From Bugula neritina (taxonomy: Eukaryota; Animalia; Bryozoa): a DNA stretch of 64,000 nucleotides. This document shows, piece by piece, positions 4,247 to 64,000 of this stretch. The notes beneath the pieces were generated by a model. That model saw only the letters and a program-made list of their open reading frames with translations. It ran no database searches and was not told where the DNA came from. Where the stretch lies: NCBI GenBank assembly GCA_964035545.1, contig OZ037772.1:9355150-9419149 (forward strand), given 5' to 3'. The position numbers were made by a program, and so were the translations under genes. Within the stretch, counting starts at the first letter, position 1. Every line of letters starts with the position of its first letter.

Positions 4247-7200
4247 TCATGTTATTCTGAACAAACATAACATATTATCATCCCAACCAGGTACAGCTAT
4301 TACTCCATCTCTGATACTTGGAACTCCTGTAAACTCTGAAGGTAGTTTGTCATGTGAAAGGGTTTGAAGTAACTCACCTGTAAAACATGAAACTTGTTGA
4401 ATCCACGTTTCCTGGCAAACACCATAATAATTGTTTTAATTTAAATATATACGTAGCTATAGTTGCAAAATTTACTTTAAAAAAGTGACAAATTAAGCTC
4501 GTGCAGATCGAAAACCTATTTAATATATTTTATATTTTTTCATACTTTAACTGAATATTTTTTAAAATAAACAAAATTTTATTTCTGTAATAAGCATATG
4601 AGCACGCAACAAACTTCTTTAATTATACTGTTGTAAAAGTGTATCATAAGTTACCACACCTGGAGAAGAGACAACGTATATCTTCTTCAATGATTTAGCT
4701 GATACATAGATGAGTCCATTAGAATCTGTACAGAGACTGTAGCCATCTATAATATCATCACATGTCCAGAGTTCAACCATCTGTCCATTCTCTATTTTAT
4801 ATTTCTTCAATTTACTTCCAGAAACTACTAACAAATTATCGTCTAGTCCAAACTATAAACCAAGCAGATTCATGAAACTGATTTTCTCTGTTTGTTGAGA
4901 TGTGAAGTCATAAATTATCAGCTGCTTAGTATCTGGATTCCTCACCACAACATATCTGTCAGAGACTGTCATTACTGCTGCTATATTACTTGTTTTAGGA
5001 AACTGAAACAGTTCTTTCCTTTTTGTAATGTCACTAGCTAAACACATATCAACCTTACATGTACCAGGTACTCTATGAAGTATGAATACATTCTGATGAT
5101 GTTCCACTACTGATGTAACCAATTCCACATCTGCGTTGCATGGATTCAGCCAACTCCCACTTCTACGGAGGACATACAATCCATCATCTGTACCTATGAG
5201 AAGATCTCCATTCTGTCTATAGCAAGTAGCCAGACACTGACTAGTTGTCACATGTTCAGATATGAATGTCAGTGATGATGGAACTGTCACCAGACTCACA
5301 CCCAGCAGTGATGAATCTCTTTCATCTGTAATGAATAAAATATAGTATTTATTATTCTAGTGCTGTTATTTGATTTAAAATTCTTACATTGCTTGAAAAC
5401 ACAGCATGCTACTTTATATAATTATCCAAGTAAAAACATGCATAGCTTAACAGTTCACAAGTATGAGTAGAATAAAATTTTCTGGCATCAGCTGTGCTAA
5501 TATTTATAACCTTTAGAGAGGGTTTTGACAGCTATAGATGCTATCAGCAACAGCATATAGTTGCACCTACATATATAATTCAGCTAAGATTGCATTAATA
5601 CAACTTTCAACGAGTAAACTTCAGGAACCAAACTGATGATTTGGAGATTGTTGTTTAGTTATAAGTAGCTAAAAAAACCTTAAATAAATAGTGATATTTG
5701 ACTTACAAGTGTGACATAGAGCTTGGGGTTTACTGATTGCATATGGATCAAGTTCTACTTCACTCAGTTCTTCTGTAATTCCTTTTCTCTGCTTCACTTT
5801 CTCAGTCACATGACTCTTTTGAATCAAATGATTCAATTTGATTTGCACTTTCTGTAACTCATTTCCCTTTATCATCAGGTTGTTGTAGCAAGCTTCTACC
5901 TCATTGGTCACTTTCTTCCTGTGACCTATGACCTTTTTCATGAGTTCTTGACTTTCCTCTTTAATTTTCTTTATCTGTTTGAAGCAAAATAGTACATACT
6001 ATAAGTACAAAAATTCTTCATTAATTTTGTTCTCCACCAAAAAAAATTTTCAAATAAAATTCGTAATCTATTATTTGAAGTGTCTCCTAATTTCTAAACT
6101 TTTAAAGCTGTTTATGAATGTTTTGGCAAAAGCTTATTTTTTACGAACATCCAGGAAGTTGGCAGAACAAAACTTTTCAAATTTTGTGTCTAAATAAAAT
6201 TATTAATGACTACAATCTAATTATAAGTTAGAAAATCAATGACTACATTTTTTCTGCTAAGGAATATGATTATAAACTCACCCTTTCTTTGCGAAGTTTT
6301 CTGATCTGTTTTACAAGTTTTTCACATGTCTGTTCCTGATCATCCAGTTCTCTCCATATCCTTTTGTCTAGTTCATTCACTTCATTTATCTTTTCTGCTG
6401 TAATCTGAAGTTGAGTCTGTAGATATGTATTTATCTTCTCTTGCAGAGAGGAAAGAGACTTGAAGTTGTGTTGATTCTCATCTACACAAAATAATAACAT
6501 TACAGTTATGATTTTTCTTGGAGGTTCAATGCAGTCTATCTTTATAGTAAACAGACACCGAAATTTTTGCTCTATGTATTTTGTAGCTATATAAATTGAA
6601 TATAGTCAATTATTTTAATTAATGTAGACTATATACTGCAATATATATGGATATTATTTTTATTGCTCTATAATATTCTGAAGGATAATATTATTGAATA
6701 ATACCTGTACAGTCAGTGCCATGAACATCACATTCAACACATATCAATCTGTCACATTTCTTACAAGCTCTATCTAAGATCTCTTCATGTTGTTCACACA
6801 CTGGTTTAGAATAAATAGCTGGTGATTTCTTGTAGACTTCAATGTCTATTTCCCTATGAGATTCTTTGTAGAGAGCTGTGTGAAGCTGAAAAAATATATT
6901 AAACCGTTTTATTTGGGTATAGTATTGGCGAGAAAATTTAATACAACACAATTTAGTAAAAAAAGTGACTGATTTAAAAAAGGTTGACGGGTAGCGTGTA
7001 AAAGAATCATAAATACTGGGAGAAGTACTTTTCATATTTCACATGTTGATTGAATTAACAGATTAGTATAATTGACCGGTGCTTGGTTGTACACCTCAAT
7101 ATCTATTTCGTTATGGTGTTCTCTGTAGGGAGTTCTATATGTGCTAAAATATGATGAACAACTGTTATATATGCTCTTGGCAAGGATGAATAGTTCTTTT

Positions 7201-8435
7201 TAATGTTTATGTATGACCAACTCAAAATTTAGAGAGGTTAGTTTTAAAACATAATTTTTGCTGATGACCAGTTTAAGTTGACATAGTAACGTCTTACATG
7301 AATTAGTACTATTTTAATTTGAAATGGGGGCTTTCCAATAATTTTTAAGTCATATTATCAAGTCAACAATCATAAACTAAAATTAATCAATTATTTTTTC
7401 GCTGCTATAACAATATTCAATTTTTCTCTACCAAATATATTATATGTTTTATAAGTACATTTTTTGTAAACAACAGCTAGACAATAATTAAGATGGTAAC
7501 ATATAATATCCTGAGCATTATCTTACACCTTATATGCAGCAGGAAACATACTATATTTATTTTTATATTACATTTAGCTTTTTCTTTTAACTTCGTTGAT
7601 CTAATATTTCAACATTATCTCTCTATATCACTTTTCAATTACTTTAAATAGCAGTGTGTTGCTGCATAATTTATAGATACATTATAATAGTTTTGGATTA
7701 GTATCTCTTTTATAGTATGGAAGTTTTTAAAAATATACATGTACTTGCATCATAAATTTGTATCAGAACTCTACGTGTAAACCATTTAATGACATACAAA
7801 GCTTTGCCCTCCATTATATTTAAAATTATTACCTTTTGATGGTCAGTACAGAATTTATCTCCACATGTAGTACAAAAGCAAATAGCTATTTGACCTTGAC
7901 ATCCATAAGCTGTACAATACAAAGTATCCAGGTCAGACTTGTTATTCTCTGTTTCAACTTTTTACAGTTCTTCAAAGTTAAGGGTTTCATGTACTTCTCT
8001 GTATAATAAAATGTATTGTGATATTAACCTCAATACTATAAATATTTCAATTGTCCGAAGGAATTAGAGAATTTTTTGTAACCTCCATCTTTTTAGGCTT
8101 TTTGATTTGTGACAGTAGAAAAACCTGGTTAAGATATGAGATTGTCAGCCACTGGCTGTTAGAAACTTTATCTTTCAATCAAATTAGATATGTTATTTGT
8201 TGTTAACTATAAAAGTTGTAGATATGTAAACCATCAGATATATATAAATATAATTCGCTATATTTACTCACCCACAAGTAGGGCAAGTCACAGAGCCATG
8301 TTGGTTGTAGTATCCTTCAATACAACTCAAACAGAATACATGCTGACAAGGTAACTTTTTTGGATCTACCATAGACTCTGTTTTGGATGCACAGAAACCA
8401 CATTCATAGTCTGGGGGTAGATGTTGGGCAGCCAT
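4247..8435 (-). pseudogene. TRIM-like gene copy A (RING-Bbox-Bbox-coiled coil-beta-propeller) with two nonsense codons
   Basis: Approximate exons: RING 8272-8435, B-box1 7833-7998, B-box2 ~6705-6885, CC1 ~6281-6481, CC2 ~5706-5974, propeller ~4659-5326, last 4247-4377. TAA at 7962-7964 (CAA in copy B) and TAG at 4853-4855 (CAG in D/F). Confidence 0.85.

Positions 8436-11607: not shown

Positions 11608-11612
<5 letters not shown>

Positions 11613-11685
<73 letters not shown>
11613..11685. repeat. (TA)n microsatellite
   Basis: Direct observation. Confidence 0.97.
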
Positions 11686-11688
<3 letters not shown>

Positions 11689-12195: not shown

Positions 12196-13183
12196 ACAGG
12201 CGGGAGGGGGAGGGAGGGAGGGTGTTATAATTTATCATATATTGTTATTATGGTTTTTTTTAGAAATAAAAATAATTAATTGTCCAACAAGATTGTTTCT
12301 TCAGTTTGCGTAACACATTCTATTCTTATTGTAAATAACGTTGAACAGCCATTACATTGTAACAGCTTTATATATTATGAATAATTTGTATCTGTTTTTA
12401 AACAAGCATTATATGAGTGAGCTTTTTGCTATCGGGCCTGCACTTGAAGCATTTCGAAAGTAGTTTATTATGTTTTACAGATAAATTAAATATGACTTTA
12501 TTGAAGAATTTGTCTAAAAAAAGACAATATAGCATATAGAGTAGTAATTTGTGCAATTACTGTGCGTGAGTTATCTACTTGCGTATAGTTAGTTAGTTAT
12601 CCTGCTAGTAATTACTAGGGTAGCTGTCGAGTAATTATATTTATTATCCACAATAAAGCATAAAATAAACATCACATCAAATTATCCTAAACATCAGTCA
12701 ACTACTAATACATGTTTCTCCTTCAAGCCTCCGCTTACAACAACGTGATATAATGTTAATAGCCCGGGAAGTGTCACGTGAATCGGAAGCATATCTTCCG
12801 GAGCTGCTAATTGGTTGCTACATAAGGGCTAAGTATTCCAAGAGTAGGGAGAGGGCGATTCCCGTATTTGTACTTTGCACTACTCACTACACCGCCCCCC
12901 CAGCAGAAAGCCCTACTTTCTGATAACACAATAAAAAAACACATAATGAAAAACTATACAATAATCCAAAAAGAAAAACATACATAAGTAAACCCACAAA
13001 GAGTAAGAAGAGAAATAGTTGGGCACGACAACATTTACATTAGAAGACAACAGGGTGATCGATCACACACATCTAGTCAGCTATAAAGAGAGAGGGTGCT
13101 TACCAGCACGCGGGCCAATGTCGGAGCACTCGTTACTTTCCAGACGAGTTACAGCTCAACGAAGGTGCCTACCCCAGGCATTC

Positions 13184-14241
13184 TCATTGGGTGGACTCTG
13201 ATTCTTGTAGCGATCGTGCTCTGTGTCGAGCCTGTCGGGCACGTAGCCGCCTCTTCAGTCGCCCCACTGAGTCCTTCAACTGGTATAGACCTGTCGTCGT
13301 ATCCAGCAGGTCAGGGGCAAGTTGTGTGAACTCGGCTTGTAGTCTTACAAGCCGCTCTTCTACATTAGCCAGCTGGCTAGGCCTTGGCGGGGTTGTAGTA
13401 GTCTCTGTTAGAGGGGGTATTGTTGTTTCTTCTACTTCTGGGGTGTTGCTAGGGTTGACGGGGGTAGGAGACGGGCCCTGAACCATAGGGGACTTATGGC
13501 GGGCGGATAGCAGCAGTACGTGGAACCCTGACGCTAGTGCGGCCAGGGTGATAGCCTTCCTGATGACTGGCTTGATGGCATCCAGGTATAGGGGGAAACT
13601 GTCCTCATCAACAGTGTGGTTCTCTCCGGCGAAGCAGCTCAGCTTATGTACTGTCACGGGATACGGGTAGACGTCGTGGAACCCGCAGGGACAGAAGTGG
13701 AGTAGGAAATGGGCGTCTACATGTAAACGCAGGGAGCGGTGTGACGGGCACTCCTCAAAGCAGACCTGGCAGGTTCGGTGGGGTCCACTGGGTCCCCAGG
13801 CTTCCTCAATTCTCCTTTCCGTCGTGGGTGACACCCAACGGTGTCGTCGACGGAGCACCACGGGTATGCCATTCTCCATGACAGGCTCCTCTTCCATAGG
13901 CAGAGAGGTTGGCTGGTCCCGTGACCGGGAGGTGGTCACTCGAGTGTGATCTGAAAGAGTAGCAGTGTTAAAGATTATACACTGAGGTACCGTCGGCGTG
14001 TACAGCCTGACCGGTACTCTGTTCAGTTACACTCGTGAGATTCAGGCTAATGAATAGTTGATGGAGAACACACTCGCTATGACAGATTATTTAAAATCAA
14101 AGTCGACGTGTATTCCCACCACTGTTTATCATTATCGAATCTCCAGCTCGCTAGCTAGTGTAGCTAAAGCTGACTGATGCAGTCTAGTTATCGTACCAAA
14201 AACATAATTAACTCACCCTTCGATCCAGAATAGTAAGACAT
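13184..14241 (-). CDS. Two-exon accessory gene of Gypsy 2: C2H2 + C2HC zinc fingers, Pro/Thr linker, coiled coil and basic tail (~263 aa)
   Basis: Exon 1 14241-14217 (AAA ATG, MSYYSGSK+G), donor GTGAGT 14216-14211, acceptor CTCTTTCAG ending 13951, exon 2 13950-13184 in matching phase (ORF track 13184-13939). Confidence 0.75.
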
Positions 14242-14264
14242 TTTGGAATGAGAGCGGTAAATGA

Positions 14265-16522
14265 TTACTGTTTACTGGCACGTCTACTCTTGACTGCATC
14301 AACATAGGAAAAGACCGGACAGCGTGGTTGTGAAACGTGACTAGGGCTTTTCACTTCCAGCGGATGAATCTCGTGTGAGATTCCGCCGAGGCAAAAGTTG
14401 AGATTCTCGTGGTGATCACAACTCCCACGGCTCTTTGCCTGTTTTCCCATGCGAGGCCTCTCTAGACTTTCGTTACTGCCGCTTATACCGCGGTCACGTA
14501 CACAGTCTCTGAGACACGCTGGAAGTTGCCTAGTGTGTGGTCCTGGTCCTACGTTGGTATCTCCTTGCGGAGCCCCTCCTACGGGGGGTTTTTGCACTTC
14601 CGGACCTGTTTCTGGTTCCGGAAGTGGTGATGATGGCAGGCTTGACGTTGGGGGCGGTGGGCGCACTTTCAAGGACGGAAGTGGCCTTTCTCGCCTCGCC
14701 AAGTCTTCCTGACGTGTCATGGAGGTGTTTCCGGCCAGGTTGACAGTCTCCGCCTGCCGAGACCTTCTCGCACAATGCGTCTGCCGCCCCGCTTCACCAG
14801 GGAGACGGCTATGCTTGTTGGTCCGGCAGACTTTGCACCGTCTCACTCTGCGTCGGATATCCCGTTCCATGTTGGGCCAGTACCACCGGAGTTGTAGCTT
14901 GGTGACCACCCCTTGGACTCCTCCGTGAGTCTCCTCGTGGGTGTCTTGTATCAACTTCCGGCGGATGGTAACTGGGCAGACAACCCTCTTCCTGGCTGGC
15001 TGTCTGCTGTTGGCGGCCAAGGTCATGGTCAGCAGACCATCTGGCCCGACCCGCAGAGAGCTCCAACGTTGACAGTACAGCCGTAACTCGGCGCATCCCT
15101 GTCGCCGTTGTTTACTACTGGGTCGTCGCCCTTCCTGTTTCGCTCGGTACACGTCGGCTACCACCCCAGGAAGGCATTCCTGGAGCTTCGGCAGCTCCCT
15201 AACGTTACCAGCCCATACAGGTTTGGCGCGGAGGCTCTGGACAGCCTCCGGGGGCGTGTCAGCCCTCTGTTGGAGTAGCTGAGCAGGGGCGGTCCTCGCC
15301 GCCCGTGGTACCTCACGACAGCCTGCTCTATTTAGGCGGGCTCCGTGGTCTGTGTGGCGGAACGCCTCACTGTACCCATGTGGCAACCTAGCCATAGCCT
15401 GGCGCTTCCCGTTGCTTGTGCAGCCACGCGTCCCTGGAGGAGGGAGGGGTGGGTTGGGACGGTCCTCCGCCCTCGAGACGGGCTCTGCTGAGGACCTTCC
15501 GTCGTAGCTCCCGACGACGACCCAATGGCTTCCTCCTGGACAGGATGGAAGCGACCCAGCATGGATCTGGGTGGTAGGTCTACTGTCTCTGAGAAGGGGT
15601 TGACACACTGCACTGAGATCTCTCCTTGTCCCGTAAGCCGGCTAAAGCTATGGGCAAGTTGGACTCTCGAGTGCGTACTTTCGACAACTCTCAACTTAGA
15701 GGTTTGGCCACCGTCTACCTTGCAGCGGACGGTAGCCCGGGAGTGGCCTGGTATAGTACAGCTCCGTACTACCTGCACTGCTCCCGCTAGAGGACGACCA
15801 AACTTATCGACACAAGCGAGCTCCTTGTCGCCCATGATCATCGCAGATTTACTGAGATCGATGCGACAACCGTGTCGTTGTAAGAATGGCATCCCGAGGA
15901 TAGCATCCTCGTTGAGCTGCCCGACGATAAACGTCTCTTGGATGGCCTGGTTACGGACGTAACCAGTTAGCTCAATAATGCCGTAGAAGGGAATGCACGA
16001 CCCGTCTGCCAGGGTGCCATGATCCCCCTCATACGGTGCCAACCCGTCCTTGACCTTAGCGCTGAGGGTGTCAAAGAACTGACGGCTAAGGAGGTTGGTG
16101 GTGCAGCCTGAGTCCAGGAGGAAGTTGGCAGGCTTGCCGGCTAGCTTTTCTGGTAGGAAGTAGCTACTTCCGTGTGGCTGCAATTGTGTATGCCGTGGTT
16201 GCACCTCCCTCGCTGTGGCTCGAGGGGTCCACGGTTGGCGGCGACTATTGACCAGCTGCCGAGGTTGGGGCGGTACGCCTTGCGGCGCCTGTACCGTATC
16301 CCTCGCAGGCTCTGTGGTCAACCGTCTGCCGGCTCCGTGTTGGTGCTGGAGTGGCGTAGAGGACCCAGGCGGCGAGTGGCTTGAGCCTACTTGCCGCGGG
16401 GGTCGCCACTTCACAGCATCTCCGCGCGGCGCCCAGCGGGGCGACAGACGCGCGGGCCTCCCTGGGTGATTCACAGACGGCCCGCAGGAGGTGGGAACAT
16501 CTGCGGGCCGTGGTAGTTTAAC
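14265..16522 (-). pseudogene. pol: Internally deleted pol of Gypsy 2: protease and integrase HHCC domain only
   Basis: Protease LLDSGC; frame change near 15430; then joined directly to the pre-IN linker and H-x3-H...C-x2-C. RT, RNase H and the DDE core are absent compared with ORF 54647-58543. Confidence 0.88.
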
Positions 16523-17421
16523 CCTTGTGGGAGCTGAGGGCAGTTCCTCTGGAAATGTCCTGGCCTTCCGCATCCCCAGCAGAAGTGGTGCCCCATGCCT
16601 GGTGATTGTACCTGCGGCCCGCAAGGCTCACGGGCAGTATCTACCTGGCCTGGGGAAGCTAATGTGGTGACCAGTTTATCTAGCATGTCGGTCATCTGTG
16701 CGACTTTTGACGCTAGTGACATCTGGTTCACATTAGCCACCGCGGAGGGTTCCGCGTTTGGTTCGGCGTGAGCAGTAGTGTGCTCCGTGGTCACCTGGCG
16801 GGAGGCCACGCGGTTGCGGTGCATATGAGTCGCCAAGAGGTAGGCTTCTCCCACCGCAAGTGCATCTTCGACTGTGGTGACTCCTCTTGCTTGGAATTGA
16901 TGGTGGAGCCCCAAGTCGTTGATGGACTGCACGAAGGCATCATAAGTATACCTCTCACGGTGTACTGGAGGCAGATCGCGGAACGCGATCTGCGCTAGTG
17001 GGTACACCGTGGCAGCGTGCTCTTCTAGCGACGTGTGAGGATCACGCCGCATCCTTTGTAGACGGGCCCGCGCATCAATGGGAGAGATGCCAAAACGGGC
17101 CCACAGAGAAGCAAAGATTCCGTCTATGTCAGGTCCCGCTCCGTACGGCTTAGCTTTGCCCGCCAGCGCCATCCTGAGCTTTAGCAACGCCACCCTTGGT
17201 GGCCACTCTGCAATCTCCATCACATCTTGGAATTCTTGGATAAACTGCTCCACTGCTTCTTCGCCGGTGAAGGTGGGCACCTTCAGCCGGTATCTGTCTT
17301 CACCATGCTCTCTAAAAATTCTCACTTCTTCATCTAACACCACTGGTTCCACAGGTATATCAACATTATCTCTCTCACCTTCATTCAGTGGAACGGGTAG
17401 CTCCGTGCCGTCTTCTGCCAT
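16471..17421 (-). CDS. gag: Gag of Gypsy 2
   Basis: Uninterrupted ORF with PTFTGEEAVEQF and CCHC knuckle CWGCGRPGHFQRNC. Confidence 0.92.
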   Translation of the reverse strand: MAEDGTELPVPLNEGERDNVDIPVEPVVLDEEVRIFREHGEDRYRLKVPTFTGEEAVEQFIQEFQDVMEIAEWPPRVALLKLRMALAGKAKPYGAGPDIDGIFASLWARFGISPIDARARLQRMRRDPHTSLEEHAATVYPLAQIAFRDLPPVHRERYTYDAFVQSINDLGLHHQFQARGVTTVEDALAVGEAYLLATHMHRNRVASRQVTTEHTTAHAEPNAEPSAVANVNQMSLASKVAQMTDMLDKLVTTLASPGQVDTAREPCGPQVQSPGMGHHFCWGCGRPGHFQRNCPQLPQGLNYHGPQMFPPPAGRL

Positions 17422-24698: not shown

Positions 24699-25320
<622 letters not shown>

Positions 25321-50922: not shown

Positions 50923-53193
50923 AATATTACGATGGAGTCAAGATCTAAAACCTTAGGCAGCTAAATAAACAGCTAAGATGTTTTCAGGTTTGATAAAATA
51001 ATATATGAGATACAAATAATGCAAAACTGCTATTTATAGATGAAATAAACATCAAAGATTAGTTTTAGCTCAAATTCTATAGATATCAATAAGACAAATC
51101 TAGTATAACTTCCAAACATTGCAGAACAAGTAAATAAACAATAATTGATTTTTCACTAAAATTAAAGGATTTATGTAATGAAAAGAAAGTCTTTAAAAGC
51201 AAGACAGGTCTTTCTTTAAAACTGAATGCATGCTTTCAATGACAATTTTGTTTAGTATGTAAAAAAATCCAAGTATAAAATAAAATTTGCACTAACTGAC
51301 AGTTGGGCAATCAATCAACAACTCTATCTCACAAATATCATACCTACCTTGAAGAAGGATTAATGACCGCTGGTTTGATTGCGGCAGAAATACCACCATG
51401 CAAACAGTCAGGCAATCTACTTATATATAATACGAGATTAATTTTTTAAGTGCAGGTAAAAGATTTACCTAGTAGTAGCTAAAATATAAGCCAACTGCTA
51501 GTATAAACTGCTACAATGGCTATGTTTTAGAATGTTATACTACCTGTAATCAGCAGCTATATTCATTAATGTAAGCAAGTGTAATGCTTAAGGTTAATAA
51601 GCTAGTCATAGAGTTAGTACCATATTGACTGTATCTCAGAACATTTATTTCTCAATGCACAGGGTTAAACTAATAAAACCTATAATCAATAAATATAGTG
51701 CGGAGGCTAAAAGGGGAACCCCCAATTTATAAGCTAAGCACAATCACTTAGATTATCAAATTCAATAGAGTGTCTCAATAGAGTATAAGTGATGTATTGA
51801 ATTGTAGCACAATACAAAATATTGATTACAGCTAAACAATAATATATTATATTTAGGTTAATTGTGTGTTCACCTGCTTATAAATAACTTTAAATATACA
51901 GCAGGTAATAGTAAACTAGGCTTAAGCTGCACACATTTAGTTATCCTTCAGCACAATGCTATACGGATATATCAATATATAGGAGCTTTTATTTGTTGAA
52001 TTATCAAGCTAATTGCATGCCTTTTAAAAATGCAGCGTCATTGTATAAAATGTTGTAATGTGCTATTTTACAAAATTAATATAGAAATACTGTTTTTTTA
52101 TTTCGTTTGGTAATTGACCATATCATAGTTTATTGATGAGAATTACTAGCTTGTTTTTATTCTCAAAAAGCAGCTTATATAATGATAAGGTGGTTGGGGC
52201 AATGACTATAAGTGAACACAAAGCCATAGGTTCAAATTGAAGTGAAGCTATTGCAGATGTTAAGAAGAGCATTCAGTCATAACAGTTTATACTTTGCCAC
52301 AATAGAAAACAAGTTCTTACCAACATATTGTAGTGAATTTTGCCAGTTCACTATTATTATTTGTGGGTCTACTTAATCAAAGCCACTGCGACAGGTTGTT
52401 TACGATAAGATACTTTATTATTTACACAAATACAAGAAGGTTATTTACTGCTAGCATGAATAGAAAACGATTACATAATTAGTGAGCTTTAATACACAAC
52501 TGTTCTAAATGAAGTCCCAAGCTGCTCTGCCGGCTAGCTACTCAGCGCACTGCAACTACGAGTAGCTAGCTCCACCTGCTATCAATTAGTGTCACTGTCC
52601 TGATTGGTGGCTACTAATGGTGCCACTACTGTCCATAGTTACACTCCGACAGTGTCGAACTCACAAGATACATAAAACAATATAGAGTAAACCTTTTCGA
52701 TTAATACAATATACTTGCACCACTAAAATCTACCACACTCGCCACACCTATCGAAAAGTACACTCTACGATTGATGCACATAATCTCAAAAAAATAACAA
52801 AAGGAATAAAGGCAAAATAAAACAAAAAGATCAAAACCACCAGGAATGAGAGAACACAAAATATGTATTCAAAACGATGTCCATGTTGTACACGATCGAT
52901 CCGGGTCAGTCACAGGGTAGGGGGGGGGAATCTCTTCACCAAATGATGTAGGGTAGCATGAACTTAGTGAAAAGGAGATGTACTGCTTCACACTCGTCTA
53001 GTCGAAGCCAAGCGATGGGGGAATCGATGAGTCCCCAGAAGAATCAAGCGTGGCAAAGGAGTCTCTCCCAAAGGGGGGAGAGAGTGGAAGGAATCTCTCC
53101 AAAGGGGGGAAAGATGGAGGGGGGGTTGACTGGTCTCTTTACTACCAACGTCTACCTCGTCGCCGTCGAATTCCCAAAAGGAAGAAAGGGAAG

Positions 53194-53382
53194 ACTTCTT
53201 CTTCTTAACTTCTATTTTTCTTTTTACTTCATGCAGGAATCTTTAATATTACTTCTTTTTCTTAACTTCTATTTTTACTTTTTAACTTCATGCAGGAATC
53301 TTTAGTATTACTTCTTCTTCTTAACTTCTATTTTTACTTTTTAACTTCATGCAGGAATCTTTAATATTACTTCTTCTTCTTA
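53194..53382. repeat. 59-bp tandem repeat (~3.2 copies) in the 3' UTR of Gypsy 3
   Basis: ATGCAGG recurs at 53231, 53290 and 53349. Confidence 0.92.
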
Positions 53383-54081
53383 TTAGGATGTAGCCACAGG
53401 GGAGAAGAGGGAAGAACTACTCTGCCTATACCGGAACGTGATCGCCAGAGGAGGGGAGGAAGGAGCTACGTGCCAGTTGTCTCTGGCACTTCTGTGATGA
53501 CAGCCATCAGCACTGCTGTCATGTCGCTACAAGAATCTAGTCAAGCAGCCAGCATCTAGCCAAAAGTTGAGATGAATAATGTGACTGCGTTATGCCATGA
53601 GAAGGAATTTGGCCCCGCCATTCCAGTCTCACCTGCAACAGAATGCCAACAACTGTTGAAGGGGTTTGCACCTGTCAGTACGACACCTCGACTGAGTCTC
53701 GCAATCACTAACCACTGATTAATAATTAATCATGTGGTCGACCGCCCCACTCAAGTCATCAGTGAATCACCTGACTTGGGAAATCAACTTTATCGTTATG
53801 ATAAAGCGAGACTGATTTAGGCTACCAGCTTGAATTCTACTTAAATAATAGAATTATACTAGTAGACTTACCATAAGACAGCCCTGACTTTAGTCTGCTG
53901 CCCACTTAGGCTACGTAGTGCGCCAGCCTGCCAAGTACATGCGTGCACGTTGGCAGTTGAATCAGAAAAGAACGCTTTCCGCAGTGAAAGTGATTGTATA
54001 ACACCCCTTTCACTAGCGAGCTGACTTCGCTCATTTCTTACCCCCGGTGGTGTTTTGTGTCACACTACTGGGGTAGGCAAC

Positions 54082-57000
54082 TCACAATTGCGTCTCCTTA
54101 TACCTTGGAAACGCAACTCTCAATTGCTCGTCCCCCCAGATTTCTTTTATGATAGCTGCTGGATGTTTTTCCACTGCATCACACAAGAAATCTTTTAAAT
54201 AAGATGGAGGCGCCCTAGTGCGTTGGCTACGCTCCAACTGCACTGGGGAATTTGCTACGACTGGTGACTCTTCCACCACGAGTGGTGTCGCCAGTACGGG
54301 GGGGTCTACCAGTACGGGTGGTCCCCCCCCCAGCTGCCTCTTCCTCATGATTTTGAGGAATTGCCATCTCATCCGGGACGATGGGCCTGTCGACCGGCTC
54401 CACAGGTGGTGGTGCCGGCTCCGACAGGTCTTCAGGTGTGTCGACCTCCTCTTCCTGGGGTGGAGGAGGTTGGGGCTGGTCGGCTGGCGCATCAGCCGCC
54501 CCGTCCTGGTCTGGCAGTATCTCCTCAATCTCTCGATATGCCATGGGTCGCCCCCTCATAGGAGGGCGCCTAGCTGGCTCTAAGAGAGGAGGTGCTTGAC
54601 CTGCCGCCTCAGGACTTGCCCAGTGAGGTTTTAGCCGTGCCTCGTTCTAGACCGACACTTGTCCAGACCGTTCCACTTTGTATGTATGATTTGGCATTAC
54701 CTCAATTACGCAGTAGGGACCTACGAACTTCGGCTGCAACTTGGCTGCCTGTCCGCGCCTGCGGCGATGACTGGTCATCCAGACCCAGTCCCCCACCTTG
54801 TATAAAGGTGGGTCGTCAGAGTCACCACTCCTGACCTGCCACTGCTGCTCACGTAGCACCTCGTGAGCCGTCCCCATGCGTTTTACGAGCTTGTCCACGT
54901 AGTCGTGGACATTGCTCTCTGGATTCGGAACATGATAGGTTACGTGCTCAGGAACCCTTGTTTCTCTCCCCAGCATGAGAAAATTAGGGGTCTCCAGTGT
55001 ACTGGAGTGAGGGGTACTACGGTACGCTCGCATGATCTGCGGCAACACCAAGTCCCACTCTTCCTGGCTCCTACCGATAAGCAGGCTTCTCAGAGAGTCC
55101 CCTAGCATTCGGTTGTTCCGCTCCACGACCCCGTTCCCTTGCGGGTGATACGGGGTCGTCCGACTCTGGTTTACCCCCCACATTCTACAGAGATCGCTCA
55201 TAAGTTGCGACTGAAACTGGGCGCCCTGGTCAGAGTGTATCTGCTCCGGCAAGCCGAAATAGCAGAACACTTGTTGATCCAGAGCTCTGGCCACCGAGGG
55301 GGCCGACGCATCTGGAATAGCCAGTGCATCAGACCACCGCGTGAAATGGTCAGTTAATACCAGTATCCAGTTATTACCTCTCGCTGTAGTGGGCATGGGG
55401 CCTACCAGATCGACAGCAACCACCTGCCACGGACGACCGGCATGGAGGCGACGCCTCCCTGCGGTCTCAGTGGGGCGGCCATGCTTGCTAGCTTGGCACA
55501 CCTCGCACTTCCGCACCCGGAGTCGGACATCCCGGGTCATACCGGGCCAAAACCACTGGAGTTGAAGACACCTGATCACCCGGCTAGCTCCTGCGTGAGC
55601 TTGCTTATGGGTGTCCCAGATCAACTCCCGCCGCAGAGCTGACGGGCAGACTACCCTCTCTCGTTCACTGCGATTGGTGCCGACTGCCAACGTGATCGTT
55701 AGCAGCCCATCGCTGTTGAACCTTAGGGAGTCCCAGCGGTCACAGAAGTACTTAAACTCAGTACTCTTCACTCGCTGTTCGGCCTCACTCGGCCGCCGTC
55801 CCTCCTTCTTGGCCCGGACTAGGTCAGCTACCACTCCTGGTAGCGTGGACTGGAGCCGACATAGCTCCCTGACGTTCCGAAGCAACGTGGGGTTTGCGTG
55901 AAGGTTGTTAACAGCTTTGTTGGGTGATTCGGACAGGAGTTGCCCTTCTTCCCAGCTGTACACACCCGCTTTCCCCAACTGCGCTTCGACGTCCGAGCGA
56001 GGGGGTCCACCGTCCCTGCGCTCGATATTCTGGCATTGCTTACACCCATCTGCCTGGCGGCGGCTGAGTCCATCTGCATTACCGTGTTTCTTACCGGGTC
56101 GATGTTCGATCCGATAAGAAAACTCTGCCAGGATCTCTAGCCAGCGCGCCACTTGGCTGGATGGTTCTGCCCGTCGACACAGCCATATCAGGGACGCATG
56201 ATCCGTCCGAAGCCGGAATGTGCGCCCGTATAGATATGGTCTAAAGTGTTTGACCGCCTTGACTACTGCCAAGAGTTCCCTCCTGGTTGTACAGTAGTTC
56301 TTCTCAGGTGCCGACAGGGCCTTGCTATAGTAAGCTACCACCACCTCGCGACCATCTTGGACCTGCGATAGCACAGCCCCCACATTATGGTTACTGGCAT
56401 CAGTATCCAAAATGTACTCCTTCGCAGGGTCAGGATACGCCAAGATGGGTGCCTCCACCAGGCGATCCTTCAGGTGGTCAAATGCCTTCTGCTCAGCCTG
56501 CGTCCACTGCCATCGCACCCCCTTTGCGGTCAGCCGATTTAACGGCTGTGCAATTCCTGCGAAGTCTGGTATGTACTGACGATAGTACCCAACCAGCCCC
56601 AGGAATGCCCGCAATTCAGAGAGGTCGACAGGAACGGCCCAGTCCCTCACGGCCCGTACCTTCTCGGGGTCGGTGGCGACCCCGTCTCGACCAACTACAT
56701 GGCCCAGGTACTTGACCTCGCGTTGCAGTAATGCACACTTCGAGGGCTTCAGCTTCAGGTTAGCAGCTCGGAGTCTGTCGAACACCTCCCTGAGTCGACT
56801 GACATGTGTGTCGAAGTCGGGGGAGATGACGATGACATCATCGAGATATATGAGCAAGGTCTTCCAGTGCAGTCCACTCAGGACCTGCTCCATGAGTCGC
56901 TGGAAGGTGGCTGGTGCGGACGTAAGTCCGAATGGCAACACCTTCCATTTCCAGAGCCCATCCCGCGTTATAAACGCGGCCTTGTCCTGTGCTTCAGGAC

Positions 57001-58632
57001 TCAGGGGCACCTGCCAATACCCGCTTAACAAGTCTAACGTGCTGAAGAACTTGCTACCAGCTAAGGCATCGAGCGACTCATCAATCCTCGGGAGAGGGTA
57101 AGCGTCCTGGATGGTCACGCTGTTCAGCCTGCGATAATCAACGCAAAACCTCCAGCTACCATCCTTTTTCCGAACCAGGACGACTGGAGAACTCCAGGCC
57201 CCATGGCCTGGCTCAATCAGGTCCCGGTTCAGAAGGTCTTGCACCTGACGGCTCACTTCTCTCTCCTTCTCAGGACCTAACCGGCGGGTCGGCTGCCAAA
57301 TCGGCACCGTCCCCGCCGCCAGGGGTATCTCATGACGAACCGTCTCAGTCAGACCCATGTCATGGTCGCCGCAACTGAACACATCCTTGTACTCAGAGAG
57401 TAGCCGCGCCATCTCCAGGCGTTCTCGCTTGCTCTCGCAGCCATCACAGGCATCCTCGTACAACTCTGCTACGTGTTCAAGCACCGGCCCCCTGCCGTCT
57501 CTAGTGGGTACTCCCCGGGCACCGCCTGCTGTTTCCAGCGCGGGCCCTACATCCTCCTCTTGCACGGAGTGGAACTTCCCTACTAGAGACCCAGCCGGTA
57601 ATTCTACCGGCTCCGTGAAAGGGTTTACGCACTGGACCAGGAACTCCCTCCGCTCATCCAGTCTATTCAGACTGTTAGCGAGCTGGACGCCCCCCAGTGC
57701 ACCTTCCACCACTCCGAGCTCGGAGATCTCCCTACAGTTCACTCTGCAGCGAACTGTAGCCCGGGAGCGCCCAGGTACAGTACAGCGCTGTACCACCTGC
57801 ACTCCCCCCACCAAGGGTCGGCCAAATCGGTCGACACAGGCCAGCTCACGCCCCGCCATCACTACTGCCGACTTGCTAAAGTCGATGTAGCACCTGTGTC
57901 GCTTCAGAAATGGCATGCCCAAGATGGCATCCTCCTTGAGTTGACTGACGATGAAGGTCTCACTGATCATCTGATCACGGACTCTACCAGTCAACTGGAT
58001 TACCCCATAGAAAGGAATACACGACCCGTCCGCCAACGTGCCGTGTTCCCCCTCATATGGTTCTAGGCTAGCCCTGTCCTTGGCACTGAGAGTGTCGAAG
58101 AGACGTCGACTCAGTAGATTTGTGGTACACCCAGTATCCAACAGGAATGTGGCAGCTTTACCAGCAATTTTGCCGGGGAGGAAATAGCTGCTTCCATATG
58201 GCTGGGCGCTCACTGAGCGATTTGTCTCTTGAGGCGACACCTCATGTGCATGGAATTGGGGATGCACCTGTGCTTTTCGGTTGCGAGGGGGTCGTCGACG
58301 TTGCATGGGCGGGCAGGGTACGTCTCGGTCTCGCTCACACACGGGCGGCCGAGTGAATTCTCGGACTGATGCTCGTGTGGGCAACCGAGGAAAATCCCTG
58401 TTGTGCTCCCATTCGTCGTTCACTCCCTCATCAAGCAAACCTTCAAAGCGGTTTTTGAGTGCCCAAGCCGGAGGTATTGGTGGGCCTTGCGGCCGACTCA
58501 CTCTCCTTGGGACTTGCCACTCTGGCGAAGGCGGCCTCCTCACCCGATGGGGTGGGGGCCGTAGCCTTTGCCTTGGGGGTTAAACTCGGGCCCACGGTAG
58601 GCGGAAGTTACCGTGGGCCGTCGCTGTTTAAC
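54082..58632 (-). CDS. pol: Pol (PR-RT-RNase H-IN) of Gypsy 3 with three small lesions
   Basis: LLDTGC, YLDD, DTDAS, HHCC, DDE core and GPY motif in the Gypsy order. Lesions: 1-nt loss at ~58580, in-frame TAG at 54647-54649, G-run indel at 54323-54331. Confidence 0.93.
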
Positions 58633-59477
58633 CGCCTCCCACTGCCGCGGGGGCAACTTCGTAGGAAGTGCCCACCACTACCACAGCCCCAGCATACGGG
58701 GCCGCGCCTGTCGGCGACAGCTACCGACGACCTCTTGGGTCTCTCGGCTGTCGCCTGCTGGCGCAGTTGCCTGAACTCGGCGAGCAGTTCTCGAATCAAG
58801 CTCGTGGTTAAGCTAGATTCGTCTGCTGCTGCCGCTGCGACTTGTACAGCTGTCTTCGTTGACGACGTCGACACGTCGTCTGCCCCGACTTGCTGTACTG
58901 TCGCGCCAGGTCGACTTGCACTGTCGGCTTGGAAATAGGCATTCCCAAGCCTTAGAGCTCTCTCCATAGTCTCAACTTCGGCCACCAGCAGATGCTGTTT
59001 AAGACCGAGGTTGTTAATGGACTGGAGGAATGCATCCAGTGCTAGGCTCTGTCGACCATCGGCAGGCAAGTCGCTGTAAGCAACTTGTGCCAGTCGTTCG
59101 ACTACGGTAGCGTGCTCTCGCAGATTGGTCTTAGGATTTCTCCTAAGACTCTGCAGTTGCACGCGAGCATCTCGAGCGGTTAATCCAAACCTAGCTCGTA
59201 TTGCTTCAAATATGTCACCGACATTCTGGCTTATCCCATAGGGTTTAGCCGGCCCTGTCAGACACAACCGCAGCTGGATCAGAGTAACCCTGTTCGGCCA
59301 TCCGCAGATGTCCGCCACATCACTGAACTCAGTGATGAATTGCTCCACATCTTCTTCTCCAGAGAAGGTGGGAGCCCGCAAGTGGTACCTGTCCATAGGC
59401 AGCGCTGGGCCGCCTATGTGATCCTCCTCTATTGCTGCTGGCTCCTGTCGGGGCGCGTCGACGACTTCGTCGGCCAT
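58608..59477 (-). CDS. gag: Gag of Gypsy 3
   Basis: 289 aa with PTFSGEEDVEQF and CCHC knuckle CWGCGSGGHFLRSC. Confidence 0.93.
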   Translation of the reverse strand: MADEVVDAPRQEPAAIEEDHIGGPALPMDRYHLRAPTFSGEEDVEQFITEFSDVADICGWPNRVTLIQLRLCLTGPAKPYGISQNVGDIFEAIRARFGLTARDARVQLQSLRRNPKTNLREHATVVERLAQVAYSDLPADGRQSLALDAFLQSINNLGLKQHLLVAEVETMERALRLGNAYFQADSASRPGATVQQVGADDVSTSSTKTAVQVAAAAADESSLTTSLIRELLAEFRQLRQQATAERPKRSSVAVADRRGPVCWGCGSGGHFLRSCPRGSGRRLNSDGPR

Positions 59478-60624
59478 CTTACTCCCTGACTAGGGGCATT
59501 TGTATTAAGTGAGATCCCACCGCTGCCACCAGTGTAGTGAATTTTGCCAGTTCACTATTATTATTTGTGGGTCTACTTAATCAAAGCCACTGCGACAGGT
59601 TGTTTACGATAAGATACTTTATTATTTACACAAATACAAGAAGGTTATTTACTGCTAGCATGAATAGAAAACGATTACATAATTAGTGAGCTTTAATACA
59701 CAACTGTTCTAAATGAAGTCCCAAGCTGCTCTGCCGGCTAGCTACTCAGCGCACTGCAACTACGAGTAGCTAGCTCCACCTGCTATCAATTAGTGTCACT
59801 GTCCTGATTGGTGGCTACTAATGGTGCCACTACTGTCCATAGTTACACTCCGACAGTGTCGAACTCACAAGATACATAAAACAATATAGAGTAAACCTTT
59901 TCGATTAATACAATATACTTGCACCACTAAAATCTACCACAATATTTCTATGGATGCAATATTTGTCTACAAATTAGACAATAGCTTAGAATGCACAGGA
60001 AAATATAATTATTTTTCATTATAATAGAAATACACTATGCTACACTTCAATTTGCTTAATCGTTATGGAAATTCTTATTTTTACTAAAAAATAAAACACA
60101 ATGTTAATATACACAATTCACACCAAAAATAATTGTTATTTTTTGTATGAATAACAAGCAAATAGGTAGATAGATGAATGACAAATTACTCACTAAAATT
60201 AGAGTTTAAGTGATAAAAGTTTAAATGGCTCAAAATATTTAATAAGTTATAAGACTTATGATTAATTCACAAAAAAATGTAAAAAATATTCTTGTATTTT
60301 CACAAATTAAAAACCGTAACATTATAAAAACAAGCAAAATGCTTACAACATGCATTGATTGCAACTTATAAATGACATATTTTGAGCTAGAAAATTGTTT
60401 TGTGAAAAATTCTGTAAAAATTATATTTATCGGATAGTATAAAGTATAATACTTGTAGTTTTAAAATTACTTGGTAAAGTAAGTGAAATCCTAAAATATA
60501 GCAGTTTGTTCTTACGAATTCTTTTAATGAATAATTTATCTTAACAAACATTTTTGCAGCGTACAAATATGAAACTATACTAACTAACATATTGCGAACT
60601 AGTCACTATTTTATTACTTCTTCT

Positions 60625-63600
60625 TCAAGTTATTCTGAACAAACACAACTTGTTATCACTCCAACCTGGTACAGCCATTACTCCATCTCTGATACTTGGT
60701 ACTCCTGCGGGTGGTAGTTTCTCATGAAAGAACGTTTGAAGTAACTCACCTGTAAAACATAAAATTCGTTGATTCCACATTTCCAGTTGAACACCATAAT
60801 AAATGCTTGAATGCAAATATATGCGTAGCTATAGTTGCAAAATTAACTTTTAAAAAGTGACAAATTAGACTCGTGCAGATTGAAAACCCATTTAGTATAT
60901 TTTATGCTTTTTCATACTTCAACTGAATTTTTTTTGAAATTGAAAAATTTTTATTCTGTAATAAGCATGAGCACGCAACAAACTTTTAGAATTAAACTGT
61001 TGTAAAAGTGTATTATAAGTGACAGCACCTTGAGAAGAGACAACAAATATCTTCTTCGAGGATCTGGCTGCTACATAGATGAGTCCATCAGAATCTGTAC
61101 AGAGACTGTAACCATCTTCTATATCAACACATGTCCAGAGTTCAACCAGCTGCCCATTATCTATTTTATATTTCCGTAATTTACTTCCAAAAACTCCTAA
61201 CAAATTACTGTCTGGTCCAAACTGTAAACCAAGCAGATTCATAGAACCGATTTTTTCTGTTTGCTGAGATGTGAAATCATAAATAATCAACTGGTTAAAA
61301 TCTGGATTCGTCACCACAGCATATCTGTCTGAGACTGCCATTACTGCTGCTATATTACTTGTTCTAGGAAACTGAAACAATTCTTTTCTCATTGTGATGT
61401 CACCAGCTAAACACATCTCAACTATGCATGTGCCAGGTGCTTTATGAAGGATGAATACATTCTGATGATGTTCTACTACTGATGTAGCTAATTTCACATC
61501 CAACCTGCATACACCAAGCATATCCCCACCTCTACAGAGGGCATATAATCCACCACTTGTACCTACTAGTAGATCTCCATTCTGTCTATAGCAAGCAGAC
61601 ACACACTGACTAGTTGTCTCATGTTCAGATATGAATGTCAGTGATGATGGAACTGTCACCAGACTCACACCTAGCAGTGATGTCACTCTTTCATCTGCAA
61701 GAATTAGATACATTGTAATATTTATCAGCCTGATGTTGCAATTTTATTTTAAAATTTTACATTGTTTGAAAATACAGTCTCTAGTTACATATAGTTAGTT
61801 ATTTTAGCAAAAAAGCCTATAGCATAAAAACACCGCTTAGTAAAAAAAGCTTATCTGGCATTAGCTGTCTTAATATAATTATATTATTAAGAGAGGGTTT
61901 TGACAACTAATGCTATCAGCACCATAAAGTTGCACCTGCAGTTTAACTGATACATATTGCTTAAAAATGTTTTTCATAAAAAGCGTTCAACAAGTACATT
62001 TCAAGAGAGAAGCTGCTTGTTTCGAAACTGCTAATTTATAAACTCAAAGATTAGTTAGTGTTGTAGTTAATATATTATGGTGACTTAAATTGTAAAATTT
62101 AGGGGGAAATGCTGCTTATTAGAATTTTTTTGCCGAGTAGTTTAGAATTAATATATAACTTACGTGTGAAACATAAAGCATGGGGTTTACTGATTGCAGG
62201 TTCATCAAGTACTACTTCACTCAGTTCCTCTGTAACTCCTTTCCTCTGTTTCACTTTCTCAGTCACATGAGTATTTTGAATCAAATGATTCAATTTCACT
62301 TGCACCTTCTGCAACTCATTTCTCTTTAACATCAGGTTGTTGTAACAAGCTTCCACCTCATTGGTCACTTTTTTCCTGTGACCTATGACCTTTTCCATGA
62401 GTTCTTGACTTGTTTCCTTAATTTTCTTTACCTGTTTTACACAAAAGAATGAAATTAAATTAGCAAATTTTTAAGTTCAGTAATAAATTGATAATATGTA
62501 AACAAACAAATTTTAGGTGAAAACTTTTTAATATATTTTTATATGTTTCATAACTATGCAGTGTAGAACTTTCCAAAGAATATTCACTAGCATTCTGAAA
62601 TTGAACAAACATATAGAAATTGAGTCTGTAAATTAGGATGCAAATCATAATACATTAAGAATTGCCAGCAGTTGTTGAAAATGAAATATTTAAATGCATG
62701 TTACAAATCTGGTTTACTACATAAAATCTTACAACTTAAATCTAAGAATTAACCATAAAATTTAAGTTGGTACGGAATAGTTTTAAACTCACTCCTTCTT
62801 TGCGCAACTTTCGGATCTGCTTCACAAGTTTTCCACATGTCTGTTCCTGATCATCCAGTTCTCTCCAAATATTCTTGTCCAGATCATATACTTTGTTTAT
62901 CTTTTCTGTTGTAGTCTGAAGTTGAGTCTGTAGATATGTATTTATCTCTTCTCTTAAGGAAGAAAGAGACTTGAAGTTGTGTTGGTTGTCATCTACATGG
63001 AACATTAAAATGGTGTTTAAACTTTGTAGCAGGTTCAATACAGTCTATGTTTAGAGTAAAAAAATTAAATGCTGTGTAAACCTCTTTGCTCAATATTTTT
63101 TTCAATTTTACATAACCTAAGCACAGTAGAATTTGTTTTAAATTGAGGTGTACTATTAATAGGTATTATTATATATGTGCATGAGGGAGCAGCCGAAGTC
63201 TAAGGGTAAGAGCATTTGCTTTGTGAACACGAAGTCATGGGTTTGAGCCCCACAAAGGCCATTGGTGATGTTAGGAAGAGCATTCAGTCATAATTGATCT
63301 TGTGCTTTTTCTTACTAAGTTCTTAGCCAGATTTAATAAAAACCTCTTTCATCAAGGGTTTCTCACAGGAATAGCGACTATAAACTTGGTTGAGTTTCTT
63401 TTTGTATTATATATGTGCATGGCTATTCTCTTATGACAATATTTATCTATGATAATCTGAAGGGTAACATTAATTACTCATACCTGTACAGTCTGTGCCA
63501 TAAACATCACATTCAACACATATCAATCTGTCACATTTCTTACAAGCTTTGATTAGGAGCTCTCCATGCTGTTCACACACTGGTTTAATATAAATATCTG

Positions 63601-64000
63601 GTGATTGCTTGTACACTTCAATGTCTATTTCCATATGTGATTCTTTGTAGAGAGCTGTGTGAAGCTGACAAAAATATATTAAACAGTTGTATTTGTGTAT
63701 ATTGGCTAGAAAATTCAATGCAACAAAATTTGGTAAAAAGGTGATTGATTTAAAAAAGTTGACTGATGGCGTGTAAAAAAATCAAATACTGGGGGAGTTA
63801 CTTTTTATATTTTATATATCAATTGAATAAACAGTTTATTATAATTGACTGGTGCTTGGTTGTACACCTCAATGTCTATTTTGTTATGAAATTCTCTGTA
63901 GAGAATTCTATATAATATAATGAACAACTGCTATATGCTCTTGGCAAGGATGAATAGTTCATTTACGTTTAACTCTTCATAAGGGTGTATATGCGAATAT
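60625..64000 (-). CDS. TRIM-like gene copy F (B-box2, CC1, CC2, propeller, last exon; 5' exons beyond window)
   Basis: ORFs 63470-63718, 62742-63038, 62099-62398, 60919-61713 and 60625-60816; no lesion seen in the visible exons. Confidence 0.8.
63185..63395 (+). mobile_element. tRNA-derived SINE-like element in an intron of copy F
   Basis: A-box-like CAGCCGAAGTC and B-box-like GGTTTGAGCCC; the core is shared by other dispersed copies (11985, 32808, 50015; degenerate at ~3415, ~34975, ~52195). Confidence 0.7.

What the first reader, a model, noticed from the sequence alone, without database searches (positions are those of the whole stretch)
4247..64000. Rapidly evolving array of six RING/B-box/coiled-coil/beta-propeller genes with birth-and-death signature
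Seen: six co-oriented paralogs, four disabled by different lesions. RING and coiled-coil parts are conserved while some propeller segments vary strongly (GSWLNPCNADVE / ENRLSLCSTDVI / ESKLVECSTDMK / GDMLGVCRLDVK; PKTSNIAA / NRTSNKVA / ERSSDAVG). Established: expanded TRIM clusters with variable C-terminal recognition domains (TRIM5, fish finTRIMs) act in innate antiviral defence. Inference: a lineage-specific invertebrate defence family using a propeller as the sensor. Targeting of the neighbouring Gag proteins is speculative.
Basis: partly seen in the sequence, partly recalled or inferred. Interest (0 to 1): 0.72.

Follow-up and report, generated by a model that had tools for sequence, protein, structure and literature searches.

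The report
Bryozoan array of shuffling TRIM-propeller genes
A moss-animal (bryozoan) carries six tandem copies of a TRIM gene, four of them broken, that have swapped pieces with each other and vary most on the predicted binding face of their propeller head; they likely belong to a large repertoire of intracellular defence sensors, but no target, induction or strong adaptive selection is shown.

Summary
Observation confirmed: six minus-strand, seven-exon RING-B-box1-B-box2-coiled-coil-propeller paralogs. A and B carry nonsense codons, D a lost acceptor plus frameshift, E two deletions; C is intact (589 aa) and F is open but cut by the window. Named relatives are all bryozoan (Bugula neritina, Watersipora subatra), and the family runs to dozens of close variants and over 100 distant clusters. 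The C-terminus is a predicted six-bladed propeller whose deep profile's best natural animal hits are TRIM3/TRIM2/Thin/TRIM71 NHL domains: a derived TRIM-NHL, built like TRIM56. Copies are recombination mosaics. The propeller's predicted top face evolves about twice as fast as its bottom face (omega 0.77 vs 0.32), but site models find no positive selection and strong finTRIM-type selection is excluded for these six copies; weak selection stays open. Family members are spliced in RNA-like runs. The RING has Gly at the linchpin position, so ligase activity may be weak. A defence-sensor role is likely but inferred; Gag targeting is unsupported. The scan noted similar RING-less arrays in clams, not this family.

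The parts
4247..8435 (-). Copy A, seven exons (8435-8272, 7998-7833, 6885-6705, 6481-6282, 5974-5707, 5325-4660, 4377-4247); pseudogene, stops at 7964-7962 and 4855-4853; B-like 5' half, D/F-like 3' half
18233..22035 (-). Copy B, seven exons (22035-21872, 21616-21451, 21008-20828, 20608-20409, 19989-19722, 19327-18665, 18363-18233); pseudogene, stop at 18899-18897 in the propeller exon
25908..33704 (-). Copy C, intact 589-aa frame (33704-33541, 33264-33099, 28947-28767, 27911-27712, 27554-27287, 26896-26234, 26035-25908): C3HC4 RING, B-box1, B-box2, coiled coil, predicted six-bladed propeller
26547..26729 (-).
29221..32802 (.). 3.6-kb DNA-transposon-like insertion with about 1.3-kb terminal inverted repeats and a 4-bp target duplication, in intron 2 of C; the site is empty in E
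35805..39931 (-). Copy D (39931-39768, 39499-39334, 38657-38477, 38157-37958, 37617-37350, 36878-36213, 35933-35805); exon-4 acceptor reads ATG, 2-nt deletion in exon 7; B-box exons from a distant lineage
47585..50913 (-). Copy E, sister of C (50913-50750, 50473-50308, 49391-49192, 49050-48783, 48392-47730); B-box2 exon deleted, last exon lost
60625..63664 (-). Copy F, exons 3-7 open (63664-63484, 62992-62793, 62431-62164, 61694-61029, 60749-60625); RING and B-box1 exons lie beyond the window
7063..7127 (-). Decayed second copy of the B-box2 exon upstream of exon 3 in A (also at 63903-63834 in F)
1..3190 (-). Gypsy-type LTR retrotransposon (partly in window), interrupting sequence homologous to the spacer between D and C
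12540..17808 (-). Gypsy-type LTR retrotransposon between B and A, LTRs 351 bp 99.7% identical, pol decayed
41787..47241 (-). BEL/Pao-type LTR retrotransposon (DUF1759) between E and D, 870-bp repeats 100% identical
52329..59941 (-). Gypsy-type LTR retrotransposon between F and E, 409-bp LTRs 100% identical, 4-bp target duplication, long open pol frame

Best explanation
These six genes are tandem, recombining copies of a large bryozoan TRIM family whose predicted six-bladed NHL-derived propeller varies most on its predicted top face, and they likely act as cytosolic coiled-coil dimers in which each propeller binds a different foreign or damage-associated ligand while the RING/B-box end likely nucleates signalling or disposal. 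Shown: exon structure, lesions, mosaicism, family size, top-face bias of variation, splicing of family members. Predicted: fold and face assignment. Inferred from TRIM biology: antiparallel dimer, cytosolic location, top-face ligand binding, defence role. Unequal crossover and conversion among the repeats would both create new propeller combinations and kill copies. The Gly at the RING linchpin suggests weak or partner-dependent ubiquitin transfer, so a scaffold or lattice role is as likely as direct ligation.
For: Architecture RING-BB1-BB2-CC-propeller without filamin, the same as TRIM56, an antiviral TRIM with a divergent six-bladed NHL-like domain (PMC13236048, passages). Profile of 94 family members hits TRIM3 NHL (E 8e-24), TRIM2 (2.5e-19), Thin (1.9e-16), TRIM71 (9.5e-16), Brat (9e-11). 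45 relatives in the 90%-identity collection, 33 of 41 tree rows in a star-like crown that interleaves window copies with outside ones; 115 of 149 tested sequences from the 50%-identity search cover the domain; full-length RING-to-propeller relatives in Watersipora. 4 of 6 copies dead while omega in RBCC exons is still about 0.3, so deaths are recent. Mosaics: MaxChi permutation p=0.0005 in 6 of 8 triplets, one breakpoint inside the propeller exon; the A+B grouping is rejected for E6 (AU p=0.014). Across 31 crown sequences, 10 top-face loops change faster than 9 bottom loops (rate 1.47 vs 0.79, p=0.005), 19 of the 30 fastest sites are on top against 4 on the bottom. In the six copies omega is 0.77 (top) vs 0.32 (bottom), p=6e-6; sites chosen as hypervariable from 27 outside sequences have omega 1.1-1.5. 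Top-face net charge varies from -6 to +5 across 29 sequences, bottom -9 to -2. Spliced contigs at predicted introns 3, 4 and 6. Ten TRIM-annotated genes were among oyster herpesvirus-resistance candidates (PMC9437489, passages).
Against: No site model is significant for E6, whole or split, and simulations show strong selection would have been seen; finTRIM B30.2 gave 15-17% of sites with omega above 1 at p<0.001 (PMC2657112, passages). Omega above 1 at preselected sites is significant in only 4 of 12 model settings (p 0.02-0.05; none under F61) and is open to inflation by CpG decay (CpG observed/expected 0.32) and multi-nucleotide changes (71 of 240 codon pairs). Top-face omega overall is below 1 (0.62-0.95). 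DA and BC loops may simply be looser than AB and CD turns in any propeller; no control family was available. The face labels come from DSSP strings, not coordinates. No ligand, induction or phenotype data. Spliced contigs are about 90-93% identical, so expression of C or F themselves is not shown.
Confidence: 0.5

Rival explanations
1. Drift-driven expansion: an unstable, transposon-rich array multiplies and loses redundant copies of a TRIM scaffold with one generic host role (for example protein quality control or autophagy); the top face is merely unconstrained.
For: Site models fit M1a/M7/M8a as well as selection models; about half of E6 sites behave neutrally; 4 of 6 copies are dead; four LTR elements and a DNA transposon entered the array, three with 99.7-100% identical terminal repeats.
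Against: RBCC and the propeller core stay under clear purifying selection in every copy (omega about 0.3); over 100 clusters below 50% identity keep the domain open; preselected sites lean above omega 1 in 12 of 12 settings.
Confidence: 0.3
2. Restriction factors against retrotransposon capsids: propellers recognise Gag of Gypsy or BEL elements, as TRIM5 recognises retroviral capsid.
For: Four LTR elements sit between the genes; TRIM dimers are suited to lattice recognition (recalled).
Against: Proximity is expected in any repeat-rich array; the elements inserted after the genes arose (identical LTRs) and none is captured into a gene; no arms-race level of selection.
Confidence: 0.08
3. RNA-binding post-transcriptional regulators like Brat, LIN-41/TRIM71 and Mei-P26.
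For: NHL ancestry; Brat NHL aligns at Z 17.9, rmsd 3.1 over 215 residues, tied with WD40 proteins; a few basic top residues are kept (R110, K170, K212, K213).
Against: Those proteins have a strongly basic top patch (PMC9070667, passages); here the top face in E6 averages +0.9 and is the least conserved surface; rapid gene death is unlike developmental regulators.
Confidence: 0.08
4. Intracellular part of colony self/non-self recognition (fusion or rejection between colonies).
For: Polymorphic multigene locus in a colonial animal (inference only).
Against: No signal peptide or membrane segment is evident in the sequence; no genetic link tested.
Confidence: 0.03

Closest known systems
TRIM56 (class VII / Marin subfamily C)
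   Same: RING-BB1-BB2-coiled coil followed by a six-bladed NHL-like domain with limited homology to classical NHL repeats, no filamin (PMC13236048).
   Different: TRIM56 is single-copy with a long disordered linker and shown ligase activity; these have a roughly 40-residue linker, Gly at the linchpin and dozens of recombining paralogs. Orthology was not tested.
TRIM2, TRIM3, TRIM32/Thin, TRIM71, Brat (TRIM-NHL)
   Same: Best natural animal hits of the family profile; TRIM2 and TRIM32 RINGs among the RING hits; six blades.
   Different: No Pfam NHL match listed for 43 close members; only blade 5 is a recognisable NHL repeat; no conserved basic top patch; no filamin domain.
TRIM5 cluster and fish finTRIMs
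   Same: Tandem birth-and-death, recombination, variation concentrated in loops of the C-terminal domain.
   Different: They use B30.2/PRY-SPRY and show strong positive selection; here the domain is a propeller and strong selection is excluded for the six copies.
Watersipora subatra XP_067933727 ('TRIM25-like') and Bugula neritina EB796_020022, _020024, _020296
   Same: Same family: 24-84% identity over the propeller exon, same architecture where full length.
   Different: Only automatically annotated; the TRIM25-like label does not fit, as the C-terminus aligns with the propeller rather than PRY-SPRY.

Membership tests
TRIM/RBCC proteins | N-terminal C3HC4 RING | tested here: met
   Pfam zf-C3HC4 E 3e-7, above cut-off, copy C; eight ligands present in 5 of 5 copies with exon 1 in the window
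TRIM/RBCC proteins | One or two B-boxes after the RING | tested here: met
   B-box2 Pfam zf-B_box E 1.2e-5, above cut-off; B-box1 weak (ANCHR-like BBOX E 0.02) with Cys/His pattern visible
TRIM/RBCC proteins | Long coiled coil after the B-box | tested here: met
   120-residue helix in the AlphaFold model of the Bugula relative; TRIM_CC E 0.006, below cut-off
TRIM/RBCC proteins | E3 ligase activity | not testable with these tools
   Residue after the last RING Cys is Gly in 5 of 5 copies, Asn or Ser in two Watersipora relatives. In RNF38, Arg-to-Gly at the linchpin lowered E2-Ub affinity 36-fold (PMC12326332), yet 30 of 66 human TRIMs lack Arg there (PMC13591260). That this position is the linchpin is recalled.
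TRIM-NHL (class VII, subfamily C) | Six-bladed beta-propeller at the C-terminus | tested here: met
   24 strands in the model, six four-stranded blades with N-terminal closure; fold searches return propellers only
TRIM-NHL (class VII, subfamily C) | NHL-repeat sequence homology | tested here: inconclusive
   No Pfam NHL hit listed for 43 close members; deep profile hits TRIM3/2/71, Thin, Brat NHL at E 1e-24 to 1e-10 mainly through blade 5, but a repetitive bacterial WD40 ranks first by summed repeats
TRIM-NHL (class VII, subfamily C) | Conserved, strongly basic RNA-binding top surface (Brat, LIN-41, Mei-P26 type) | tested here: not met
   Top-face residues of blades 1-5: net charge mean +0.9, range -6 to +5 in 29 sequences; most variable surface; blade 6 loops not included
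TRIM-NHL (class VII, subfamily C) | Phylogenetic placement within subfamily C | not tested
   No tree with reference TRIMs was built
TRIM5/finTRIM-type antiviral clusters | B30.2/PRY-SPRY C-terminal domain | tested here: not met
   The C-terminus models and aligns as a propeller
TRIM5/finTRIM-type antiviral clusters | Tandem expansion with pseudogenes and recombination | tested here: met
TRIM5/finTRIM-type antiviral clusters | Strong positive selection in the recognition loops | tested here: not met
   Site-model LRTs not significant, with power shown for strong selection; weak selection inconclusive; only six copies had DNA
TRIM5/finTRIM-type antiviral clusters | Induction by infection or restriction activity | not testable with these tools
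   No challenge data available

The most novel reading that the evidence does not exclude
Bryozoans have turned a degenerate TRIM-NHL into a repertoire of a hundred or more cytosolic pattern receptors whose propeller tops are diversified by crossover within the propeller exon, signalling as ligase-poor scaffolds: a lophotrochozoan counterpart of TRIM5/finTRIM built on a different recognition fold.
Probability: 0.25. Interest if true: 0.7.

Novelty: new variant of a known kind. Interest (0 to 1): 0.42.

Why it matters
Bryozoan immunity is nearly undescribed, and this family gives a concrete, testable candidate repertoire with a defined variable surface. If the defence role holds, TRIM scaffolds have been turned into variable sensor arrays with an NHL-type propeller as well as with B30.2, and the mechanism of diversification (crossover inside the propeller exon) is visible in one locus. 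The propeller is also a Pfam orphan with over 100 sequence clusters. If it fails, the locus is an ordinary unstable gene array.

Tried and rejected
No whole genome is held for this window, so copies could not be counted genome-wide. The metagenome scan for DNA of relatives gave only 3 distant loci at 25-27% identity out of 92 pattern matches, so dN/dS rests on six copies. Single-sequence PDB search and the 39-row profile gave nothing specific. Foldseek and VIA-align cannot separate NHL from WD40 or other propellers: the top 50 rows are within about 2 Z units. The ESM Atlas gave NHL/SGL/Vgb-type clusters at 0.91-0.92 with recognition below threshold, a weak lead only; a second Atlas look-up did not complete. 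Sequencing runs: no RNA holder listed on record. Topology tests on E4, E5 and E1+E2+E5 rejected no tree; A vs B/F and B vs A/C MaxChi were not significant (2 of 8 triplets). Branch lengths for M7/M8/M8a were scaled from M0, and my codon code is a home-made GY94, not PAML. No complex prediction with Gag was run, since adjacency alone gives no reason. No tRNA genes in the window. Literature: ten searches listed no paper on bryozoan TRIM genes; PMC12373286 and PMC9679249 held no relevant TRIM passage; PMC9334734 lists 22 TRIMs in Aplysia. The library lacks most subscription papers and I read no supplements, where gene-family tables of bryozoan genome papers could list this expansion. Assembly artefact was considered and rejected: copies differ by 3-35%, one run matches F pieces exactly; the stop codons themselves were not checked against reads.
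Full report
Gene models. Reading the minus strand gave six paralogs with one seven-exon plan and matching phases. C encodes 589 aa: C3HC4 RING (Pfam E 3e-7), B-box1, B-box2 (E 1.2e-5), coiled coil and a C-terminal domain with no Pfam family above cut-off. A has two nonsense codons, B one, D a lost exon-4 acceptor and a 2-nt deletion in the last exon, E has lost exon 3 and exon 7 by deletion; F is open from exon 3 on and runs out of the window. The Bugula neritina protein EB796_020022 aligns across exons 4-7 and supports the splice model. Contigs from four RNA-like runs (at most 3 samples, 2 studies) skip exactly predicted intron 4 (4 of 4 runs) and intron 3 (3 of 4), and one joins exon 6 to exon 7; the listed pieces are about 90-93% identical to C or F, so they show that the family is spliced, not that C or F is.

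Organism and family. The named close relatives are from Bugula neritina: 5 of 45 hits, with 39 unnamed JGI and 1 Logan protein. In a tree of 41 rows (six window copies and 35 of the 45 hits; 10 short ones left out) 33 rows form a star-like crown in which the window copies do not group together. A profile search of 50%-identity representatives found 903 proteins at E 0.001 and 55 at 1e-30; of 149 sequences re-tested, 115 cover at least 150 profile positions and 96 of these end at the exon 6/7 boundary, as expected for single exons called from eukaryotic DNA. Of 20 clusters looked up, 5 carry a name, all Watersipora subatra, including full-length RING-to-propeller proteins. The window is therefore from a bryozoan close to Bugula, and six copies are a small part of an old, large family. 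The unnamed sequences may mix species, alleles and pseudogenes, so they give no copy number.

The C-terminal domain. AlphaFold2 on the Bugula relative gives a 120-residue helix and 24 strands, read as six blades with N-terminal closure (mean pLDDT 76); exon 6 of C alone gives five blades (pLDDT 80.5). Fold searches return only propellers and cannot choose among them. A 94-sequence profile can in part: after one repetitive bacterial WD40 and designed proteins, its hits are the NHL domains of TRIM3, TRIM2, Thin, TRIM71 and Brat, mostly through blade 5. With the RBCC front this makes a derived TRIM-NHL the simplest reading. TRIM56 has the same plan, with an NHL-like domain of limited homology, and is antiviral (PMC13236048, passages). 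Subfamily C TRIMs occur across animals, and tandem TRIM expansions were already noted (PMC3503706, passages).

History of the array. Self-comparison shows a duplicated block (C with E at 92-93%, the 3' part of D with F at 92%, the 5' flank of B with that of D at 89%). Copies are mosaics: A follows B through introns 2-5 and D/F from inside exon 6 onward; F follows A/B in exon 3 and D later; D's B-box exons are 66-72% identical to all others. MaxChi was significant in 6 of 8 triplets. Three LTR elements have 99.7-100% identical terminal repeats and lie between genes; a DNA transposon sits in intron 2 of C but not E. Sequence below A matches the D-C spacer up to the first LTR element, so a further C-type gene probably lies beyond position 1 (inference).

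Selection. One-ratio omega is 0.31 for RBCC exons and 0.50 for exon 6 (p=0.019). No site-model test is significant. Simulations on the same tree detected 16 of 16 cases with 15% of sites at omega 4, 11 of 16 with 10% at omega 3, and 1 of 16 with 20% at omega 1.5; the observed LR of 0.29 was reached in none of the 32 strong cases and 3 of 16 weak ones. So selection of the finTRIM kind (PMC2657112, passages) is excluded for these copies, weak selection is not. Four copies are pseudogenes, but their RBCC omega of 0.2-0.35 shows recent death. Assigning residues to faces from the DSSP strands (DA and BC loops as top, a recalled convention consistent with the TRIM3 alignment), 31 crown sequences (outgroups and near-duplicates D and E dropped) vary about twice as fast on top as below (loops p=0.005), and omega in the six copies is 0.77 on top and 0.32 below. 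Sites picked from 27 outside sequences have omega 1.13-1.54 in the window copies, above 1 at p<0.05 in 4 of 12 settings.

Mechanism. Shown: structure of the genes, turnover, mosaicism, top-face bias. Inferred: coiled-coil dimers present two propellers whose top faces bind ligands that differ among paralogs; no shared basic patch suggests proteins or mixed ligands rather than one RNA motif (PMC9070667, passages). The RING ends in Cys-Gly in all five copies; in RNF38 that change cut E2-Ub binding 36-fold (PMC12326332, Results part 1), though 45% of human TRIMs lack Arg there (PMC13591260, passages), so ligase activity may be weak or partner-dependent. I put a defence-sensor role at 0.5, drift of a generic scaffold at 0.3, and Gag restriction or RNA regulation at under 0.1 each.

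Novelty. Ten literature searches listed no description of bryozoan TRIM expansions (see Tried and rejected). The scan holds unchecked notes on RING-less B-box/coiled-coil/propeller arrays in clams, none on this sequence or genome. The parts and the evolutionary pattern are known separately; their combination in bryozoans, with an orphan propeller, is a new variant.

Noticed in passing
window 60599-60717 and 62171-62366 (run X2, record 9): One low-depth 490-nt contig joins exon 5 to exon 7 with only about 60 nt between, as if a family member makes a transcript lacking nearly all of the propeller exon (an RBCC-only form).
   Followed up: no
window 29221-32802: DNA-transposon-like element with about 1.3-kb terminal inverted repeats starting GGG and a 4-bp target duplication; it would form a very long hairpin in the pre-mRNA of the only intact gene.
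   Followed up: partly
window 52329-59941: Gypsy-type element with identical LTRs and a 1310-codon open pol frame (protease, RT, RNase H, integrase by Pfam): a very recent insertion.
   Followed up: partly
window 41787-47241: BEL/Pao-type element with identical 870-bp repeats but an internally short coding region (930-codon frame with DUF1759).
   Followed up: partly
window 32830-32990, 50025-50194, 63234-63406, 12068-12192: A short, very abundant interspersed repeat (SINE-like) in introns; extreme contig depth in all runs laid.
   Followed up: no
window 7063-7127, 63834-63903: Decayed duplicate of the B-box2 exon just upstream of exon 3 in A and F (and by alignment in B): an old internal duplication that marks the A/B/F 5' lineage.
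   Followed up: partly
whole window outside LTR elements: CpG observed/expected is 0.32, suggesting a methylated genome.
   Followed up: no
window 24699-25316: A 470-bp TG microsatellite next to a 16-bp AT-rich tandem repeat between C and B.
   Followed up: no
L001 622-1329, L002 1648-2451, L003 50-784: Distant family members (25-27%) with a 22-residue insertion in blade 3; L002 has a helical, coiled-coil-like frame upstream.
   Followed up: partly
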